In this document: in pieces, positions 40,598-55,724 of the stretch
How positions within the stretch are numbered: the first letter of the stretch is position 1
Layout: every line of letters begins with the position of its first letter
NCBI RefSeq assembly: GCF_001447785.1
Contig: NW_015170891.1
Span: 171,427-235,426 of the forward strand
DNA: 64,000 nt
Origin: Gekko japonicus
Taxonomy: Eukaryota
Reading direction: 5' to 3'
The notes under the pieces: model-generated
The model's database searches: none
What the model was told of the DNA's origin: nothing
Seen by the model: only the letters and a program-made list of their open reading frames with translations
Translations under genes and position numbers: made by a program

Positions 40598-41376
40598 AGG
40601 AAGGCCGAGCGCTGGAGGAATTCGAGATTTTGAATTATGGTGCTGGAGGAAATCTCTTGAGAGTCCCTTGGACTGCAAGAAGATCAAATCAGTCAGTCGT
40701 AAAGGAATTCAACCCTGACTGTTCCCTGGAAGGCCAGATACTGAAGCTGAAGCTCAAATACTTCAGCCACCAAATGAGAAGGGAGCACTCATTTATTTAT
40801 TTATTTTATTAGTTTGATTCTAGCCCGGCTTCCCCGCCAAGGCAGGCTCAGGGCGGCTCACAACGAGAACAATGGATAAAGCAACAATGTAAAAATCAAT
40901 ATAAATACACAGTAAAATTATTAAAACTATTATCATAATGATGGCGTGACGGCTGTGACAAAGTGCACATACAACGATACATCCTCTAGTGGTGGGCTCA
41001 GGGTAGAATTGGGACAGGGTGAAGATGATAGAACGCAGCTCTTTATCTAAATGCCTGACGAAAGAGCTCCGTTTTTGCGGCCCTGCGGTACTGTACAAGG
41101 TCCCGCAAGGACCCTGATTTCATCCAGAAGCTCATTCCAATAAGTTGGAGCTGCCACAGAAAAAGCCCTTAGGCATCATTGGAGAAGACCCTGGTGCTGG
41201 GAATGATTGAAGGTAAAAAAAGAAGGGGATGGCAAAGGATGAGATGGTTAGACAGTGTTATCGATGCAATGGACATGAAATTGAGCAAACTCTGGAGGAC
41301 AGGAGGGCCTGGCGTAATGTGGTCCATGGGGTCGTGAAGAGTTGGACTCGACTGTGTGACTGAACAACAGCAACAA
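40598..41376 (+). mobile_element. RTE-BovB 3' fragment split by an L2 insertion
   Basis: Colinear with the 45.8-46.2 kb BovB copy on both sides of 40794-41175; CAA tail. Confidence 0.9.
40794..41175 (-). mobile_element. L2 LINE 3' end nested in BovB
   Basis: Minus strand reads RAFSVAAPTYWNEL..KTELFRQAF* (L2 ORF2 C-terminus, with a frameshift); (TAAA)n tail; TCATT duplicated at 40789-40793 and 41176-41180. Confidence 0.85.
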
Positions 41377-42276: not shown

Positions 42277-43017
42277 CAGGGGTGTGCAAACCCCACCCCT
42301 GTATTTTTCGGGTTCAGGTATACTGAACCCAAAATATTAGTATTTCCCAATATTCCTTAATCCCAATACTGGTATGATATTTGGATTCGGGAAATATTTG
42401 AGTTTTTTCAACTCATTATACCCTATGGGGACCATTATAGTCAATGATCCCCATAGCCTATAATGGAGAATTGATCCAGGGGTATCTGGGGCTCTGGTGG
42501 GGCTGTTTTTTGAGGTAGAAGCATCAAATTTACAGCATAGCTGCTGGTGCCTCTCCTCAACCCCTCCCCCCAAGTTTAAAAAAGAATGGACTAGGGGGTC
42601 CAGTTCTATGATCCCCAGAAGAAGATGCTCCCATTCTCCATTGTTTCCAGTAGAGGGGAAAAGGCATTGAAAGGAATTGTGGTCCCTTTAAATGCCTTCT
42701 CTGAGCTGTGTGACTCTGCTGTGAGTGAACTTCAAAGGTATTTAAAGGGTTCACAGTCCCTTTAATTGCCTTCTCCAAGCTAAGAATTCACTCCAAAGGC
42801 ATTTAAAGGGACTGAGAGCCCTTTAAATGCCCTTTAACTGCAGCTATCCAGTGGTCCCAAAAAATCCCAAATATTTTTGGAATTTTTCGGGTCAGCCATT
42901 TTTGGATAGCCAGATAGGAGCTCACTGGTTAACTGGATGAAAAAACACCCGAAAAATTCCAATAAGGAACTTTTTGGGTATTTTTTCAGCTTGATTTATG
43001 CCGAATGCACACCCCTA
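42277..43017. mobile_element. Non-autonomous hAT-like DNA transposon
   Basis: TIRs CAGGGGTGTGCA / TGCACACCCCTA; 8-bp TSD ACCATCTC/ACCACCTC; internal CCCTTTAAATGCC repeats. Confidence 0.85.
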
Positions 43018-45022: not shown

Positions 45023-45492
45023 TTATACAAACACACAAATAGCCTCAGCATCCGATCATGACTATACTAAAGCTTGTCATGTTGTAAACTCCTTGAACAG
45101 GCCAAACAGAAAGCAGTTATTACTAATACAATAAGCATTTACAGAATGAAAAACAGAAAGCAGAGTACAGTAGCATACAGTCAGAACAAAGAATGCAAAA
45201 TTAGTCATAGTGAACACTTGGAGAATAAACTGGCATCATCAAGTGCCTAAAACATTACAAACATCAGCTACAGGAAAATGGGGGCTGGGAGAGAATCCCA
45301 GAATTGGCATGATGACAGAGAAAGTACTGCTTCTAGAAGTGAGGTTTTACACACCAGGAGCTTTGTGGAAGTTCTCAGTGGCTGACTGTGCCTAGTGATC
45401 TGCTTTTCTCATGCTATAGTAAGAGACAAATACTGCCATGCCTAATAGGCCTGGAAACCAAGGGACAAAAATGTGGGCAGATAGATGGGTTG

Positions 45493-46205
45493 TTGCTGAG
45501 GGTGAAAGAGGAGAGCGCTGCAAAGGTTGGCTTGAAACTCAACATCAAAAAAACTAAGATCATGGCATCCGGCCCCATCACTCCTTGGCAAATAGGGGAA
45601 GTCATGGAAGCAGTGACAGACTTCACGTTCCTGGGATCCAAGATCACTGCAGACGGTGACTGCAGCCATGAAATTAAAAGACGCCTGCTCCTTGGGAGGA
45701 AAGCGATGGCAAACCTAGACAGCATAATAAAAAGTAGAGACATCACCCTGCCAACAAAAGTCCGTATGGTCAAAGCAATGGTGTTCCCAGTAGCAATGTA
45801 TGGTTGCGAGAGTTGGACCATAAGGAAGGCTGAGCGCCGAAGAATAGGTTCTTTTGAATTATGGTGCTGGAGAAGACTCTTGAGAGTCCCCTGGACAGAT
45901 CAAGGAGATCAAATCAGTCAGTCCTAAAGGAAATCAACCCTGACAGTTCCCTGGAAGGCCAGATGCTGAAGCTCAAATACTTTGGCCACCAAATGAGAAG
46001 GGAGCACTCACTGGAGAAAACCCTGATGCTGGGAAAGATTGAAGGTAAAAGAAGAAGGTGATGACAAAGGATGAGATGGTTAGACAGTGTTATCAATGCA
46101 ACGAACAGGAAATTGAACACACTCCGGAGGACAGGAGGGCCTGGCGTGATGTGGTCCATGGGGTCGTGAAGAGTCGGACTTGACTGTGCGACTGAACAAC
46201 AACAG
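45493..46205 (+). mobile_element. RTE-BovB LINE 3' fragment
   Basis: GLKLNIKKTKIM..ELWCWRRLLRVPW; CTGAACAACAAC tail; TSD AGATGGGTTG at 45483-45492 and 46206-46215. Confidence 0.95.
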
Positions 46206-46873: not shown

Positions 46874-48592
46874 TACCAGGGGAGACCTGGCTAGCCCTAT
46901 TGCACTCTGTTCAGCAGTCACTGGCAATCTGGCTGTTAAGAGGAGCTTTGGAGTTGGGTGAAAGTTGACTGATCAGTCTTTAGAGCTGCTTCTGACAGGG
47001 AAATCTTGCTTGTATGTGCTTTGTATGATTTCTTTCTGCTGTTTTGTGGTTGGTTGGTTTATTTCTCATAAATCGTTTTGTCTGATCTAATTTTTGGTAG
47101 CTGTCTGGGTTTTGGAATGGAAAGATAGGATACAGTTTGCGCCATTTGTAACATTGGAAGAGGGACCTGGGGATGAGGGATGGCTGAGACAGTGAAGAGC
47201 ATGGAGTGGTGCTGGGCTTTCTGCCAATGCCATCGTGCACATTTCCAAGCTGCTCCTGTCTGAGGAGCTAAAAACTGACTTTAGTTTATGTTTTAGAAGT
47301 GCCAGATTCATTGCCATCTAGCCGAGGGCTGTCTACTCAGGCAGTTGGTAGCTCTCCAAGTCCCAGGCACGGAGCAGTCTTCTCTGCTCTTCTTGACCTG
47401 AAAGCCTTTTAGCTAGAGTCACCAGGGATTCGACCCGGAACCTTGTACATTGAGCTATGACTCTTCCCTCATGCAGGCACCAGTGCTGATGTGCTGTGTG
47501 CAGTTAGAGGCATTCTGTCAGTGTGGAATCCTTAGGAGTGTGGCAGAGCACAAATCCTGGTCCCCGGTCTTTTGCCCAGTGGAGCAGGTTTTCTGGAATA
47601 ATATGAATCAGAAAATTTTCTGGAAGTTTATTCCAATGCCATAAATTTTAAAGCAAGATCTGGGTTATGTTTATTTTGACTTGGATTTTGTAAATAAAAT
47701 ATAAATTTGCAGATATTCCAATAAGAACAAATCTGAGCTGAAATATTAGATTAGCAAAACGAAATAAAGTGTAGTTTAAATGTTCAAAGGTTTATGTTGA
47801 AATTATTTTTATTGGCATAATATTTATCAGAATGTAAAGATAATGTAGTATGTATATTGCTTACATTGTGAAATTTAAAAGAAAACTTGAAGGCACTAAG
47901 GACTTGATGCACTAACTGCAGTCCTGAGCGCTTTTAAGTCCATTGAAGCCAGTTGTCTTAGAAAGGTGTAACTGTGCTTAGGAGTGCACTGTAATTTTAA
48001 TGCACCCAAAGAACTGTGCATGGTATACCATGGTCATATTTGACCACTCGTATTTTTTCAGTAGAATTTAATTTTTGTCCATGGAGGTCATGATGGCATC
48101 TCATCACTTGCATTACTTGTTAGTTCAATACCAGATTGGTGATTACAGTATACCTTCCACCTTGTGAGAGGAGACAGAAATCAGTATTTTAGGTTTGGTT
48201 TGGTTTTGACCTGTACAGCCGGTCAGGTAAATTCGTAACCTGATTTTTACATTTCGCATTGTTATACATATTTGTGCTTTAATCCCTTCCCCCCTTGTCC
48301 AGTTTACAAATCAACAAGACATTCTTTCTTTAAATACATTATTTACACCTTTGAAATTGCCACGCTTGCCTGATATTATATTGACAGTTATACCCATTCA
48401 TTGCTGGTAGTTTTATGAAACACTAATTCCTGTGAAGGAAAAAAAAGCACGACATTTTTCTGCCTCACATGTTTGTTGCCTATGGGTTCTCAGGTGTCCT
48501 ACCCACAAGGTTTATTAGGTAGGCTGAAAGGGACAGTCTTCCTCCTTCCTTTCTTAGGTCGAGGTTGCAGTAGGATTCAACCCTCAGCAGGA

Positions 48593-48755
48593 NNNNNNNN
48601 NNNNNNNNNNNNNNNNNNNNNNNNNNNNNNNNNNNNNNNNNNNNNNNNNNNNNNNNNNNNNNNNNNNNNNNNNNNNNNNNNNNNNNNNNNNNNNNNNNNN
48701 NNNNNNNNNNNNNNNNNNNNNNNNNNNNNNNNNNNNNNNNNNNNNNNNNNNNNNN
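48593..48755. other. Assembly gap (163 N)
   Basis: Run of N. Confidence 1.
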
Positions 48756-50159
48756 GTATGTGGTCAAGTATCAGTTTAACTGCTGACAATAGGAGAGTCA
48801 CTGTGGTGTACTTTTTTTTTTTTTTGACAACTGCCCAAACTTTAATCTTGATCAGGCACAGCAGCCTCATCAGTTTCATTTAGGCTGCTTGTGTGACTGA
48901 CTGACACTCAGGAGCAGTGACAAGCTGCATATGAATGCCGGCTTCATTAGTGGGGCTGATCAAAATGCCCATGTCTCTGCCACAGGGGCTCAGGTGTGGG
49001 TGTCTTCTGGCTAATCCCCCCAGCTGACACTCGGAGTTTTAATGACTCCGTAGCAAGGTGGCCGCTTGCTGGGAGGTTTGCCAGCAGACAATGGAGATCA
49101 AGGGAGACCATCAGCATTAAGTTGGAGAGCTGCCTGAGTAACTTGCATCCCCTTTGGCTTAAGCAAATGCCTTTAAAAAAAATTAGACTCCTTTGCAAAA
49201 ATGAGTGCCCAGTGTTTGTATATTTGTGAGCGCTGATGGCTGGGAATGAGCAGTGCCACTCAGTATTGATGCTCTTGTTCCCATTGCATGGCCAGCACTA
49301 TGGTCATCTTTCTAGGTACATTCTTACTAGGACACATCTGCTCTTGTTTCTCCAAGTAGAGGCACTTCCCCTGTTGGTCCCTTTTAAATTCTTAACATGG
49401 TTTGGGATATTAATTTGGCTTCCCTCCATTAGTGGGATTGATCTAAATCTTTCTACCTCCATTCCAAAATGCTGCCTAGAATTACTGTACACTACAGGAT
49501 TAATGATAAAACATTAAAAAAATAACTCTTCTGGTGGCTGGTGATCTTAATTTTTTTTAGCCATGTTCTCCATAAGGAAATTGTATATGGAACTGTCTTA
49601 AGGATGTGGTTTTTGTATTGTCTTTGGCATGTAAAGCCAAAGAACACAGACTCTTCCAAGATATTTTGACTACACCTTTTAATTCATCCAATGTATGGCT
49701 GAATACAAGCACCTTTTGAGCATCTTCGTGAACTTACAGAAGACAGTTAGTAGTACTTAGAACTTGTGCCTGATAATGTGGGCGGGTGTATTCATAAGCT
49801 GCTGATGTCTAGAGAAAAACAGGTTGCTTACCTGTAGCTGATGATCTTCGAGTGGTCATCTGTGCAGTACCACACATGGGTTGGGCGCCTGCGCACGGCC
49901 TCGACTGGAGAAACTTCTAGAGCTTTGCCTCAGAAAGCTTTTGGCGGGCTCTCTTCCTGCCCTAGGGAGCAGGCATGTACTGCGCATGCCTGGAGCGGGG
50001 GAGAGAGCCGCCTCCCACTCAGTTCCTTTGACCGCTACCGGTAAGTCCCATGAAGCCAAAGAAAGGTGCAGAAACAAGAGGGGGAAAAACCTGAACCTAA
50101 CAATAAACTCCAGAACCAAACAAAGGTTAGTGAAAAGGAGGGCCAATATTAAAACCTTT

Positions 50160-50900
50160 CCATAAAAAAAGGTACATGTATTTATTGATAATAACAAAAT
50201 TTAAAACATATATAGGGGCCCCATTACAACCAATGTATATAAAACATAACAATAGCAAGGGCTTAAAAAGTTGACCTTACGCGTTGGCCAAATAGGCCTT
50301 CCTCAGAGGTCATACATATGTGGCAAGATGGTTAATAATTATATTCACATAAACACAATCAGAAATATATACAAAGTATAGATTCAATAAGAACCGTAAA
50401 GTAAATTGCTGTAAAAAATAAAAAATAGAAGATACACACATATTTTACAACAAATTAAAGAATTTCAAATCTATATAGCCAATCTGTAAATATAGACCAC
50501 AAACTTACTTCAGAAGTAAAATCACCAGGCACAGGATAAATATGCACATAAGACCTTTAAAGTGCAATCACTAGCCCAGTGATTATAAAATAAACCTAAG
50601 GAAAAAAATGAAAATCAGTATATCAAGCTATTTAAAACCCAAAAATAAATAGTAGTAATAATAATAAACTAGTTACTTATGTGTGATTGTGTTTCCACAG
50701 TATTCACAAGTAAAAAGCAGTGTGGGTAAACTTAAAAATGTTGGAGCTTTATAATTAGTTAAGCTGGTCATGTGATTGCACCTTTCACATAGAGTATACC
50801 ATTAAGGGATAAAGATACAGTACAAATTTAAACATAATGAAACCGTCCATAGATTATATAAAGATACATGCTATACCAACAAGATTATATTGCACACCTA
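50160..50900 (-). mobile_element. Probable Penelope-like element pseudo-LTR/3' fragment inside the DIRS
   Basis: AT-rich segment unlike the surrounding DIRS; contains the hammerhead motif followed on the minus strand by AATAAA near 50185; boundaries uncertain. Confidence 0.55.
50272..50312 (-). ncRNA. Degenerate minimal type I hammerhead ribozyme motif (Penelope-like type)
   Basis: Minus strand UGACCU-CUGAGGA-A-GGCC-UAUUU-GGCC-AAC-GC-GUA-AGGUCA: 6-bp stem I, CUGANGA box, stem II, palindromic ACGCGU stem III, GUA triplet; the GAAA box lacks GA. Confidence 0.75.
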
Positions 50901-51004
50901 GTTCTCTTTTTTTCAGTTGTTGGATCATCTGCTGGTGGCTACTAGGCCAAACATACAAAGAAAGGTGAACAGGAGATGCCAGCAGTGGGGAAGGCTGGGT
51001 GGGA

Positions 51005-51100
51005 TTGTGGTACTGCACAGATACCACTCGAAGATCGTCAGTTACAGGTAAGCAACCTGTTTATCTTGATCGTGGTCTCTGTGCAGTCCCACACATGGGT
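51005..51100. repeat. DIRS internal complementary region (ICR)
   Basis: Left half is the reverse complement of 49817-49875; right half (TCTTGATCGTGGTCTCTGTGCAGT) is nearly the reverse complement of 55537-55560. Confidence 0.92.
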
Positions 51101-51228
51101 GATTACCAGAGCTGAACCAGTTGGATGAGGGAGCTGGTAGCTGCAAAAGACACAAAGAATACTGGTTAAGACACAGCATCATCAGTGAGAAAAAACACCC
51201 ACGGGTCCTATCAGGGGACACAGCAGGG

Positions 51229-53130
51229 TCAAGCGAAGAGAGATCGCAGCACCGACTGGCCGAATGCAGCATCCCGTCGAGCTCGAACATCGTGTGCATA
51301 GTGGGTCATGAAGGTCGATGCCGAGGACCATGTAGCAGCCGCACAGATGTCCTCCAACAGAACACCAGCCAGGAAAGCGGTGGATGTCGATACTGCCTGT
51401 GTAGAATGGGCAGTGACAGAGGTAGGGACGGATTGACATGCAAGCTCATAGCAAAGGACTATGGTGGAAGTCAACCATTTAGACAAGCGTTGAGAGGAAA
51501 TCGGCTCCCCGATATGAGGACGGCCATAGGCAAGGAACAGCCGAGGAGATTTATGTATAGGCTGAGTCCTATGTAAATAAAAAGAGAGCGCTCTGCGCAC
51601 ATCGAGGCAGTGGAGGTCTCTCTGAGGTGCATCAGTCGGATTCGGAAAGGAAGAAGGTAAGACAAACGACTGGGACAGGTGAAAAGCAGAAACGACTTTA
51701 GGCAGGAAAGAAGGATCTGGTCTAAGGACAACCTTCTCCTTATGAAAAATTGTATAGGGGGGATCAGCCCAAAAGGCAGCTAGTTCCCCTACTCTGCGTG
51801 CTGTAGTAATCGATATAAGGAAGGCAGTCCCGCCCTGCTTGTTTATGTAGTAAACGGTGGTGGTGTTGTCGGAGGCAATCCGAACGACTCGGCCTCGAAG
51901 CACCGGGAGGAAAGAGCAGAGAGTGAGATGAATCGCACACAGCTCCAGGACATTAATATGAAGGGTGGCCTCGCGACAAGACCAGGTCCCCTGCGCTGAA
52001 AGGATTCTACACTGGGCTCCCCAACCCCAGAGGGATGCGTCGGTGGAGATCGACACTTGCGGAGGAGGATGTCGAAAGGGCATGCCAGAGAGCAGGTGCT
52101 GAGGATGAGACCACCAGGCGAGGGAGTCGATGACAAAGGGTGGGATTGACAGGATTTTGTGCCACGGACTGCGGAGAGGGTCGAAGGCACGGAGAAGCCA
52201 CAGTTGGAGGGGACGCATCCTCAACCTGGCATTACGGATGACGAAGACAGTAGACGCAAAGTGTCCCAGGAGCCTCATGACGGACCGAGCAGACTGCCGG
52301 GGAGAGGTCTGGAACTGCGAGACCAAGGTATGTCGGAGGCCCTTGAGTTCGGGAGAAACGCGGTCTCAAGGTTGGTCTCGAGACGGACACCCAGAAATTG
52401 AAGGACCTGAACAGGTTGGAGAGATGACTTGGGTAGGTTTACATAAAGCCCGAGGGCATGAGGGAGAGACAGGGTCGTTTGGACATCTAGGAGGAGCTGG
52501 TCTTGGGTGGCAGCGACGAGAAGCCAGTAGTCGATATAGGGATACAGGGCAATCCCACGACGATGGAGGTCTGCAGCCACCACAGCCATCAGCTTGGTAA
52601 AAACCCTTGGGGCAGTACAGAGTCTGAACGGAAGAACTCGGTATTGGTAGTGTGCGTTGCCGACAGCGAAACGCAGGAACTTTCGACAGGTAGGTCTCAA
52701 TGGGGACGGAGAGTAACATGAAAATACGCGTCCAGGAGATCGACAGAGGTGAGCCATGCAGCCTTGGTAATCAGTGGAAGAATAGATTGTAGGGCAACCA
52801 TTTGAAACTTGTGGCATCGAATGTATCAATTCAGATCTTGAAGATCCATAATGGCCTTGAAGCCGCCATCCCTCTTTGGTACACGGAAATACTTGGAATA
52901 GAAGCCTAGGGTTCGTTGCGCCTCTGGGACTACTTCGATGGCGCCCTTGGCCAGAAGTGCCGAAATTTCGAAATGGAGGAGAGGATCGGGGGGGGGGGGG
53001 TGATGACAAAATCAGGCAGGTCGGGAGGCGAAATGAACTCTATGGCGTACCCGACCCGTAGGATGGTGAGGACGCAGGAATCAGTGGAAATTTCTTCCCA
53101 CGTTGACAGAAAAGGGAAGAGTTGGGTCCG
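51229..53130 (-). pseudogene. DIRS RT-RNase H and tyrosine recombinase remnants
   Basis: ORFs 52366-52719, 52275-53009 and 51229-52326; the latter two carry the RT, RH and YR motifs; several frameshifts and catalytic substitutions. Confidence 0.9.
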
Positions 53131-53176
53131 GATGGGAGGGGTGTACGACGGAGGAGACGGCAGGCGATCGAAGCGG

Positions 53177-55175
53177 TCAGGCAGACTGCTTGGGCTGCTG
53201 GGGTTTTTTAGGGGCCTGTTGGCGTGCCCTATTTGGGTAATGGGAGTTATAGGGCCTCTTTCTCCATTGGGAGGTGGGGGTGGGAGACAGCTGGCTCCTG
53301 GCATAATATGGTTTACAGGAACGGTGTCGAGGTCGAGACACCCAGGTTCCGAGCCTGCTTCCGACCATCATCCACGGCCTTCAAGGCCTTGTCAGTGGTA
53401 GAGTGGAAGAGACCTTCGCCATCGAATGGGAGGTCCTCAGTCCGAAATTTCACATCGGGCTGTAAAGAGGTACCTCTTAGCCAAGCATGGCGACGGAGGG
53501 TGGCGGAGGAGACAAGGACCTTTGAGGAGCAAGTGACAGCATGGCGGACTGAATTAATTTGCTGTTTTGAGAGATCGTACAAATTTCCGATAGAGCCCCC
53601 GACAACGTGGGACGGTGTTCCTCCGAAACAAACTCCAAGATGGGATGTACTGCATTAGCCACATTAAAAGCATAAACCGACAGATACGACAGGTAGGACA
53701 ATACGAAGATTCATAGAGGCGAAGGAATACGTCTTCGTGATAAGATCGACCTTGCTGCGACCCTCGCGGTCAGGAGGCGCAGAGTGGCGGACAGATTGCT
53801 TTGATTTCAAGGAAGAGTGTACCACCATAGAATTTGGTGGAGGCTGCCTAAAGAGAAACTTCCCTGAGTTCTCTTGGACCTTATAAAGAGCTTCGTATTG
53901 TCTGGAGACCGGGGGAATTGAAGCGGGATGGACCTAGGACTCTTTAAGGGCAGAAAGGTGGACCGGCAACAGAGGCAGGGCCATAGAAGGCGGGAGGTTG
54001 GCCTGAACAAGCTTGTGAACAACATTGGTCACAGCTGGGGATTCAGTGGAACCCTGGACCTGAAGCGCAGAGGCCATCCTGGTTACGAGTTCCAAATACG
54101 ATTTCCGGCCCTCAGTGGGGGAAATAGAACCTGAGCCCCGAGGCTCATCGTTGATGTGCGGAACATTGAGTTCTAGGTCTCCTGAATTTGAGTTGACGGA
54201 GATCAACATGGGAGAGGATGATCTCAGCAGTTGAGTGAGATCAGCCGGCATAGGGTCATCAACAGGGGGATGAAGCCCAAGTTCTAAGGGAGAACTCTTT
54301 GGGGCATCCCTAGGTCTTGAGAGCTCAGGAGGGTGGTGAGGAGCCCTGGAGCAGGTCGAAGTCACGGACCTAGAACGTCTGGTGTGATCCGAAATGCATC
54401 GATGCTCAGTACGTTCAAAGTGATGAAGCCGATCATAGTGGTGCAGCTGAGGAGTAGGAGACCTCGGATAGTAATAAGGATAAATAGTCAGGCCGATCTC
54501 GTTCATCAGGAGACCAGTATTGGTCGTCAGAAGGCGATCCCGAGGGGGAAGGCGACGGATGACGAATGAGACGTTTTTGATCACATCGAGAATGGCAGCC
54601 GACAGAATGCTCCCTGCCCTCCAAATCGTGGATCGGGGTACGGGTGTGTGAAGACGGAGATTGAGAGTCCCAGTGATATGACAAATCGGGAGGCGATCTC
54701 GTAGACTGACCCAGCAGAATAAGGCCAGACGCTGAAGAGAGCGTAGGCGGTGGTGTCGGAGGCCGCAAAGTGGACTTGTTAGGTACAACAGCCACAGTAG
54801 GAGTTGATGTCGTTAAGACGGTAATGACGACCAGGTCGACAGCCGAAGTCGAAGCCGATGTCGAGGGCTTGACTTTCGATTTTGACGGAGCCTTATCCTC
54901 AAGCCGTTTAGGTTTTAGCTTTGGTGCCTTCGGAGCCCCATCTGATCTTTGACAAACGGCTGAAGCCATGGTAGGGCGCAGAGCTGCCTCTAAAAGCACG
55001 GCCCTAAACCGAGCCTCTCTATTACGTCTAGCTAGCTTAGTAAAACTAGCGCAATGGACGCAGCTATCAACTCTATGGGATTCCCCCAGACAAAGAAGGC
55101 AAAAATTGTGACCGTCGTTCGAAGGAATTTTAGCTTGGCAACGAAGACACACTTTAAAATCTTAGTTTTGCCCAT
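53177..55175 (-). pseudogene. DIRS ORF1 (gag-like), frameshifted
   Basis: ATG at 55175; N-terminal Cys/His finger, Ser/Pro/Arg-rich linker, C-terminal LRRHAWLR..DLPFDGEGLF motif typical of vertebrate DIRS gag. Confidence 0.85.
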
Positions 55176-55724
55176 ACACTCTCCACCCCACCCACCAAAT
55201 AGGGGAGGGGGGAAAAGAACGAAAGTGAAGAAAGAAAGGTTTATTCTTTTTTAAAAAATATAAGTAGTGAGGAAAGAAGAGTAAAAAGACACAATGATGA
55301 AGAAATATCTAAGGCAAATACGGCTAAGGCAAATACGGCTAAGGCTAAGGCAAATACGGAGCGCAATAGAAATGAGGTGTGAACACACAGGCGGTTGAAG
55401 ATCTGAGTGGGAGGTGGCTCTCTCCCTCGCTCCAGGCATGCGCAGTACGTGCCTGCTCCCCAGGGCGGGAAGAGAGCCTGCGAAAAGCTTTCTGAGGCAA
55501 AGCTCTAGACGTCTCTGGTCGGGGTTGTGCGCAGGTACTGCACAGAGACCACGATGAAGATCACTTTTCACTCTTAAGAAGAGATATGGAGGATAGGTCA
55601 TTATTTTTGATACGTTCAAATGCATATTGTTTCATTTTTCACCACAATGGGATGTGGTGTTGGGATTGCAATATCCCCCCCCCCCCATTCAAGTCTGTGT
55701 AGTTCTTCAACAAACAAGAGTTCT

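What the first reader, a model, noticed from the sequence alone, without database searches (positions are those of the whole stretch)
50272..50312. Minimal hammerhead ribozyme motif inside the DIRS 3' region
Seen (minus strand, same sense as the DIRS, antisense to PSMB7): stem I UGACCU/AGGUCA, CUGAGGA, stem II GGCC/GGCC, palindromic ACGCGU and a GUA cleavage triplet; restoring a missing GA would give a canonical GAAAC core. Known: such minimal hammerheads with palindromic stem III are typical of Penelope-like elements and are thought to cleave as dimers. Inference: most likely a Penelope-like fragment inserted between the ICR and the ITR. The more novel alternative is a DIRS subfamily that carries a ribozyme at its transcript 3' end.
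Basis: partly seen in the sequence, partly recalled or inferred. Interest (0 to 1): 0.7.

Follow-up and report, generated by a model that had tools for sequence, protein, structure and literature searches.

The report
Broken Penelope hammerhead nested in DIRS
This is a real but damaged copy of the small self-cutting RNA motif that sits at the end of a Penelope-type jumping gene, whose broken-off tail end lies inserted in one copy of an unrelated DIRS jumping gene, so it is ordinary nested genomic debris that is predicted to be unable to cut.

Summary
The motif is there as described, with two core letters (G12, A13) missing. It belongs to an 888-bp insert (50068-50955, minus strand) bounded by an 11-12 bp target-site duplication. 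Of 47 distinct sister DIRS loci, 46 show the empty site and none holds the insert. Longer copies of the insert continue into a reverse transcriptase plus GIY-YIG ORF with a CxxCxxC linker. The insert is therefore the 5'-truncated 3' end (last codons, pseudo-LTR, ~40-nt tail) of a Neptune-type Penelope-like element. Intact versions of the motif occur 1,207 times in the genome with compensatory stem changes, and their predicted best fold is the hammerhead dimer. The GA-less form and the DIRS junction are each unique. So the ribozyme is real at family level, this copy is likely dead, and there is no ribozyme-bearing DIRS subfamily. It lies antisense in a PSMB7 intron. Reads did not independently confirm the 2-nt deletion. 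Such ribozymes are published for reptile Penelope-like elements, and this scan noted similar relics elsewhere in this genome. Low interest.

The parts
50272..50312 (-). Minimal type I hammerhead motif of the Penelope-like pseudo-LTR, lacking G12 and A13 (2-nt gap between 50286 and 50285); palindrome ACGCGT 50284-50279; predicted cut site between 50278 and 50277
50068..50955 (-). 888-bp 5'-truncated insertion of a Neptune-type Penelope-like element (end of ORF + 3' pseudo-LTR + tail)
50885..50955 (-). Last codons of the GIY-YIG endonuclease ORF, with an internal deletion of about 58 nt at 50899/50898; element stop codon at 50887-50885
   Evidence: window reads YVWPSSHQQMIQQLKKREL; sister L034 reads YVRPSRHQQMIQQLKKREL
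50068..50110 (-). Optional ~40-nt 'tail' of the Penelope-like element; sister 3' ends cluster at about 50068 (26 of 64 alignments) or about 50110 (32 of 64)
50956..50966 (-). Target-site duplication, upstream copy (ACCTTTCTTTG on the minus strand; 12 bp if the adjoining C, shared with the element's last base, is counted)
   Evidence: (11-base overlap of the two flanks in empty-site DIRS copies)
50057..50067 (-). Target-site duplication, downstream copy
51006..51100 (-). DIRS internal complementary region (51006-51066 complementary to the right end 49813-49874; 51063-51090 complementary to the left end 55534-55561)
49813..50035 (-). DIRS right inverted terminal repeat (49888-50035) and right extension
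55391..55561 (-). DIRS left inverted terminal repeat
49813..55561 (-). Host element: degenerate DIRS1-like retrotransposon (broken RT frames; deletion at about 51829 relative to sisters, about 750 bp by L082) in a PSMB7 intron, antisense to the gene

Best explanation
The motif is the hammerhead of the 3' pseudo-LTR of a Penelope-like retrotransposon (likely Neptune clade) whose 5'-truncated end lies inserted, with an 11-12 bp target-site duplication, in one DIRS copy, and having lost two core letters it is predicted to be catalytically dead. Order of events: (1) a DIRS1-like element entered a PSMB7 intron in antisense (anatomy shown, timing inferred); (2) a Penelope-like RT/GIY-YIG protein likely nicked the DIRS 3' region and reverse-transcribed its own RNA from the tail start site, stopping about 25 codons into the ORF end (junctions, TSD and tail shown; mechanism inferred from PMC11167929); (3) the copy then decayed, losing about 58 nt in the ORF remnant and G12-A13 in the ribozyme (shown against sisters). 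In intact family members two motifs are predicted to pair through the ACGCGU palindrome and crossed stems I to form a double hammerhead that would cut after GUH, probably weakly and with protein help (fold predicted here; activity known only for relatives). The window copy keeps the 'substrate' half but lacks the general base G12, is solitary, and is antisense to the host pre-mRNA.
For: Empty site in 46 of 47 distinct sister DIRS loci (45 scored, one more readable; one not scored); no insert homology in any of the 47; no hammerhead-like fold in the 58 DIRS loci scanned. No DIRS homology in the 58 loci holding sister copies of the insert (L002-L030, L032-L060), nor in 30 loci taken from the pattern search. 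26 of the 29 loci found with the insert's 5' part have GIY-YIG-region homology; Pfam RVT_1 and GIY-YIG pass their cut-offs. L121 shows inverted pseudo-LTR + ORFs + pseudo-LTR with a hammerhead in each repeat. Two 3'-end clusters about 40 nt apart match the published optional tail. 1,207 exact matches to the intact pattern, 0 to the reversed control. 53 of 55 sister motifs keep GAAA and 0 of 55 share the 2-nt gap (the script counted 52, L060 has GAAA behind a changed stem II). The gapped form occurs once in the genome; of 40 scored candidates (91 in the first look) only the window spans the DIRS/insert junction. Compensatory changes in 4 of 11 pairs, 22 cells, covariation 0.237 against 0.099 shuffled. 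The dimer MFE equals the drawn double-hammerhead (-35.5 kcal/mol against -15.1 per monomer). G12 is the general base (PMC6155905).
Against: No cleavage was tested. The 2-nt deletion at this locus was not confirmed in reads: none of the 20 pieces shown (73 more not shown) spans the site without the gap, so an assembly error is possible. Genome searches score only the best 40 candidates (of 865, 1002 and 1464), so most copies were not inspected. The pattern fixes the core and stem II, so their invariance in alignment A1 is by construction, and 'pairs with a change on both sides' was reached by 46 of 500 shuffles. Clade assignment rests on motifs, with no tree. The published Neptune preference for (TA)n targets is not seen at this site. 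The DIRS tyrosine recombinase had no Pfam, NCBIfam or PDB match; that label rests on recalled motifs plus ITR/ICR anatomy.
Confidence: 0.95

Rival explanations
1. A DIRS subfamily carries a hammerhead at the 3' end of its transcript and spreads with it.
For: The motif is in the same sense as the DIRS and sits between ICR and right ITR, leaving both intact. Only the best-scoring 40 candidates per search were examined.
Against: 0 of 47 sister DIRS loci hold the insert; the junction is unique among 40 scored candidates; the gapped motif is unique genome-wide; a TSD marks a secondary insertion; the host DIRS copy is itself broken.
Confidence: 0.01
2. The locus really holds an intact hammerhead and the missing GA is an assembly error or one allele; it would then be a solitary, intact Penelope ribozyme.
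For: Reads and contigs shown carry the two extra letters (45 of 57 RNA reads in run X21) and no shown piece spans the site without them.
Against: Those reads are expected from hundreds of sister copies; 73 pieces were not shown; the copy has other decay, such as the ORF deletion. Even if intact, it has no tandem partner and is antisense to PSMB7.
Confidence: 0.06
3. The motif is a chance look-alike with no ribozyme ancestry.
For: No Rfam hammerhead hit; monomer folding is only modestly better than shuffles (z about -2).
Against: 1,207 intact relatives against 0 control matches, compensatory stem changes, fixed position in the pseudo-LTR of RT/GIY-YIG elements, 0 hits in 300 shuffled windows.
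Confidence: 0.005

Closest known systems
Minimal hammerheads (min-HHR) in pseudo-LTRs of metazoan Penelope-like elements (Cervera and De la Pena 2014, PMC4209133; parts 1-2 of 4 read, supplements not seen)
   Same: Type I topology, unpaired base between positions 9 and 10.1, G10.1-C11.1 pair, palindromic 15.2-16.2 region, location in the repeat flanking an RT/GIY-YIG ORF, thousands of mostly solitary copies from truncated elements; reported in Neptune elements of fish and, as similar motifs, in turtle and snakes.
   Different: Stem II is short here (4-5 bp, against 7-8 bp in the Schistosoma min-HHRs) and stem I is 5-7 bp; there is a 2-nt GC palindrome centre, as in the paper's 'small palindromic helix III' variants. 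This copy lacks G12-A13.
PAc / Poseidon_Ac of Anolis carolinensis (Frangieh et al. 2024, PMC11167929; parts 1-2 of 4 read)
   Same: Lizard Penelope-like element with a hammerhead, two reverse-transcription start sites giving an optional tail, GIY-YIG nicking; ribozyme cleavage needed protein and was not needed for insertion in vitro.
   Different: PAc is Poseidon clade with a single ORF whose start lies inside the hammerhead. The family here has a CxxCxxC linker and two overlapping ORFs; in the long copies read the hammerhead lies about 600 nt after the stop codon.
Neptune clade of Penelope-like elements (Craig et al. 2021, PMC8557442; Arkhipova et al. 2013, PMC3846280; Roussel et al. 2025, PMC12602865; passages read)
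   Same: C-terminal GIY-YIG with cysteines between GIY and YIG, CX2-5CxxC linker, inverted pseudo-LTR at the 5' end, tail, short TSDs (8-10 bp in the rotifer Penelope examples); an upstream ORF1 is reported in a killifish Neptune, and a frameshifted ORF1 is listed among PLE architectures.
   Different: No (TA)n target here; no tree was built, so Nematis is not formally excluded.
DIRS1-like elements AcDIRS1/AcDIRS2 of Anolis (Piednoel et al. 2011, PMC3266345; passages read)
   Same: Host element has ITRs of about 145 nt, a right extension and paired ICRs of about 40 and 60 nt (published: conserved ITR 136-140, ICR 39-60), with no TSD expected.
   Different: This copy carries a Penelope-like insert and internal deletions. 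The published description has no ribozyme, and none was found in 58 sister loci.

Membership tests
Minimal type I hammerhead ribozyme (family level) | CUGANGA and GAAA core with UH cleavage site | tested here: met
   53 of 55 sisters have CUGANGA, 53 of 55 GAAA, 32 of 55 fully canonical; 1,207 exact pattern matches
Minimal type I hammerhead ribozyme (this copy) | Intact GAAA box including general base G12 | tested here: not met
   G12 and A13 absent in the assembly; not independently confirmed by reads
Minimal type I hammerhead ribozyme (family level) | Stems I and II supported by covariation | tested here: met
   U-A/A-U swap at the core-proximal stem I pair in 8 of 19 rows; C-G/U-A/G-C at the outer stem II pair; 22 double-change cells, 0 of 500 shuffles. 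Four stem II pairs are fixed by the search pattern and say nothing.
Minimal type I hammerhead ribozyme (family level) | Palindromic stem III allowing a dimer | tested here: met
   Predicted dimer MFE equals the double-hammerhead pairing; prediction only
Minimal type I hammerhead ribozyme | Self-cleavage at the UH site | not testable with these tools
   No pile-up of read ends in run X21 (3 in 100 of the run read, standard RNA-seq), which is uninformative
EN+ Penelope-like element | RT followed by C-terminal GIY-YIG endonuclease | tested here: met
   Sister copies L050, L121: RVT_1 and GIY-YIG above cut-off; the window insert begins in the last codons of this ORF
EN+ Penelope-like element | Pseudo-LTR with hammerhead, direct or inverted arrangement | tested here: met
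   L121, L124, L134 carry inverted pseudo-LTRs with a hammerhead on each strand; no direct tandem with a full ORF between was seen among the 20 stretches fetched
EN+ Penelope-like element | Optional 30-40 nt tail; 5' truncation; short TSD | tested here: met
   3' ends cluster at about 50068 (26 of 64) and 50110 (32 of 64), some loci counted twice; 11-12 bp TSD
Neptune clade | CX2-5CxxC linker between RT and EN | tested here: met
   CGGCQVC at residue 630 of the L121 ORF2; CGRCEVC in L034
Neptune clade | RT phylogeny groups with reference Neptune elements | not tested
   No reference PLE proteins were fetched
Neptune clade | Preference for (TA)n targets | tested here: not met
   Target here is CACCTTTCTTTG; the sister 3' flanks printed are not (TA)n runs
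DIRS1-like retrotransposon (host element) | ITRs, right extension and paired ICRs | tested here: met
DIRS1-like retrotransposon (host element) | RT and tyrosine recombinase ORFs | tested here: inconclusive
   RVT_1 hit at 52275-53039; recombinase ORF gave no Pfam, NCBIfam or PDB hit; its motifs are recognised from recall only
   0 of 47 sister loci; junction unique

The most novel reading that the evidence does not exclude
The gapped copy is a substrate-only half-ribozyme. Any transcript of this DIRS copy carries an intact palindrome, GUA site and stem I arm just upstream of the right ITR, so RNA from any of the hundreds of intact Penelope sisters could pair with it and cut it in trans, removing the terminus that DIRS replication needs. 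One retroelement's ribozyme would then disarm another's RNA. The mixed dimer is predicted to be as stable as the intact one (-35.6 against -35.5 kcal/mol), and family RNA exists.
Probability: 0.03. Interest if true: 0.55.

Novelty: new member of a known kind. Interest (0 to 1): 0.1.

Why it matters
As found, it matters little: it is one decayed copy among more than a thousand Penelope-type hammerheads in this genome, nested in a dead DIRS. It removes the idea of a ribozyme-bearing DIRS lineage. The family itself is a clean natural set (young copies, several subfamilies with compensatory changes, a two-ORF architecture with a conserved slippery site) for the open question of what Penelope hammerheads do in vivo.

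Tried and rejected
Rfam scan of 48000-53000: no hammerhead model matched at E<=10. DIRS-chimera idea: rejected. Regulation of PSMB7 by pre-mRNA cleavage: rejected because the motif is antisense and gapped. Read check of the 2-nt deletion: inconclusive. One 63-nt contig of run X1 crosses the 5' junction at single-copy depth (90.6 against 93.4), with 33 and 30 letters on the two sides, one short of the tool's bridging rule, and X1 may be the assembly's own sample. No indexed holder was on record as RNA; raw RNA reads laid came from sister copies, in both mate directions, with no pile-up of ends, so they say nothing on cleavage. Recombinase confirmation by Pfam, NCBIfam and PDB failed; the PLE ORF2 had no PDB match. 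A 50-bp DIRS-like hit in L135 lies about 6 kb from its Penelope copy and was set aside. No strong stem-loop was found after the slippery site (z -1.68). Literature: 'hammerhead + DIRS + retrotransposon' gave 7 papers (6 listed), and a DIRS search gave 11 papers of which 10 never use the word ribozyme; by listing alone none reports a DIRS ribozyme, and these were not read for it. Lunse et al. on dimer cleavage was not held; it is cited only through the review PMC6765202 (passages).

Full report
Observation. Stems I and II form in the centroid fold. A descriptor tolerating the gap hits once in the window and never in 300 block-shuffled windows (descriptor written after seeing the motif). Rfam has no matching model at E<=10. 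The motif lies between the internal complementary region (51006-51100) and right ITR (49888-50035) of a DIRS1-like element spanning about 49813-55561. That element sits antisense in a PSMB7 intron.

It is not part of the DIRS. Searches with the DIRS sequence on either side (40 scored of 1002 and 1464 candidates) gave 58 non-self loci, 47 distinct. In 45 the two flanks join directly with an 11-base overlap, a 46th shows the same, and one was not scored. None has homology to 50068-50955, and a relaxed hammerhead scan found nothing in the 58 loci. In the window the overlapping bases are duplicated on both sides of the insert (11 bp, 12 with a C shared with the element's end): a target-site duplication. 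A 70-base query across the 5' junction matched full length only in the window among 40 scored of 91 candidates.

What the insert is. The motif region has 865 candidates in the genome. None of 58 loci with sister copies has DIRS homology; nor do 30 loci from the pattern search. Copies found with the insert's 5' part continue upstream into an ORF: 26 of 29 have GIY-YIG-region homology, and Pfam gives RVT_1 and GIY-YIG above cut-off. The window insert starts within the last 40 or so codons of this ORF, loses about 58 nt, and runs through the stop into the untranslated repeat. Among 20 longer stretches, L121 shows an inverted pseudo-LTR, two overlapping ORFs and a 3' pseudo-LTR, each repeat with a hammerhead. 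Sister 3' ends cluster at about 50068 (26 of 64 alignments) and 50110 (32 of 64) (some loci appear twice). This is the optional tail described for Penelope-like elements (PMC8557442 legend; PMC11167929), and the window copy has it. A CxxCxxC linker before the endonuclease points to the Neptune clade (PMC8557442, PMC3846280; passages); no tree was built, and the (TA)n target preference is not seen.

The ribozyme is real at family level. An exact pattern for the intact core occurs 1,207 times, its reversed control 0 times. Of 55 distinct sister motifs, 53 keep GAAA, 32 are fully canonical and none shares the 2-nt gap; the gapped form occurs once genome-wide. In 19 aligned motifs (18 chosen from the 30 loci plus the window), 4 of 11 pairs show changes on both sides (22 cells; covariation 0.237 against 0.099), though the count of such pairs was reached by 46 of 500 shuffles and the core and four stem II pairs are fixed by the pattern. 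Co-folding two intact copies gives exactly the double hammerhead, with crossed stems I and the palindrome as stem III (-35.5 kcal/mol; monomer -15.1).

How it works. Shown: junctions, TSD, tail, empty sites, family conservation. Inferred: insertion by nicking and target-primed reverse transcription from the tail start site, then decay. Known from relatives: metazoan PLE minimal hammerheads are inactive as single motifs and weakly active as dimers or trimers (PMC4209133; review PMC6765202). The Anolis PAc hammerhead cleaves only with protein and is not needed for insertion in vitro (PMC11167929). G12 is the general base (PMC6155905), so a copy without G12-A13 is predicted to have no catalytic half. 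It keeps the palindrome, cut site and 3' stem arm, and a mixed dimer is predicted to be equally stable; this is the basis of the low-probability novel case. Being antisense, it cannot cut PSMB7 pre-mRNA.

Results against or unsettled. Reads did not confirm the 2-nt gap: 45 of 57 RNA reads at the site carry the two extra letters (expected from sisters), and none of 20 pieces shown, of 93, spans the site without them. Searches score only top candidates. The DIRS recombinase had no library match; that label is from recalled motifs and the ITR/ICR anatomy, whose sizes match AcDIRS1/2 (PMC3266345). The supplementary figures of PMC4209133, which I did not open, may show reptile motifs close to this one.

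Novelty. Minimal hammerheads in Penelope-like pseudo-LTRs are published, including Neptune elements and reptiles (PMC4209133). Secondary insertion of Penelope copies into other elements with short TSDs is also described (PMC3846280). Two literature searches listed no report of a DIRS ribozyme, but the evidence here excludes that reading anyway. Earlier unreviewed notes of this scan reached similar verdicts at other places in this genome; they were read after my analysis and are not support. Verdict: real motif, ordinary origin, likely dead copy; interest 0.1.

Noticed in passing
L121 (G000:C12845) 4056-4050 minus strand; loci L172-L191: The parent Penelope-like family has two overlapping ORFs (about 244 and 769 aa, stop to stop). 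A UUUUUUA slippery heptamer starts the overlap. It is present in 8 of the 10 loci in which the script located the site (of 20 loci examined), and in 6 it is exactly 81 nt before the conserved VNLS motif in the phase for a -1 shift. ORF1 has no Pfam match; no strong downstream hairpin. A frameshifted ORF1 is listed for some animal PLEs in PMC8557442 (figure legend only), so this is probably a known feature, untested here.
   Followed up: partly
window 50955/50956: The target's last 9 bases (CTTTCTTTG, minus strand) also occur in the element 8 nt upstream of the truncation point, so the 5' junction may have formed by microhomology followed by a short deletion.
   Followed up: partly
genome-wide; L142-L171: At least four hammerhead subtypes share the same core but differ in loop II, stem I and the cleavage triplet (GUA, GUC, GUU); they probably mark several Penelope-like families. 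Only 2 of these 30 loci have ORF homology within 1.5 kb.
   Followed up: partly
L002-L029: Many of the closest sister copies share the same internal deletions in the pseudo-LTR (window-equivalent 50423-50510 and 50602-50683), suggesting a shortened, possibly non-autonomous subfamily that spread on its own (RNA reads with these joints).
   Followed up: no
window about 51829 and 52275-53700: The host DIRS has a deletion of about 750 bp that fuses an RNase H-like frame to the recombinase-like frame, and its RT region is split over several frames; domain names other than RT are from recall.
   Followed up: partly
window 42659-42965: Small nest of inverted and direct 37-47 nt repeats that looks like a miniature inverted-repeat element.
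   Followed up: no
window 40615-41372 and 45343-46204: Two related repeat fragments, 82-94% alike, with an ORF remnant resembling Bov-B/RTE (label from recall).
   Followed up: no
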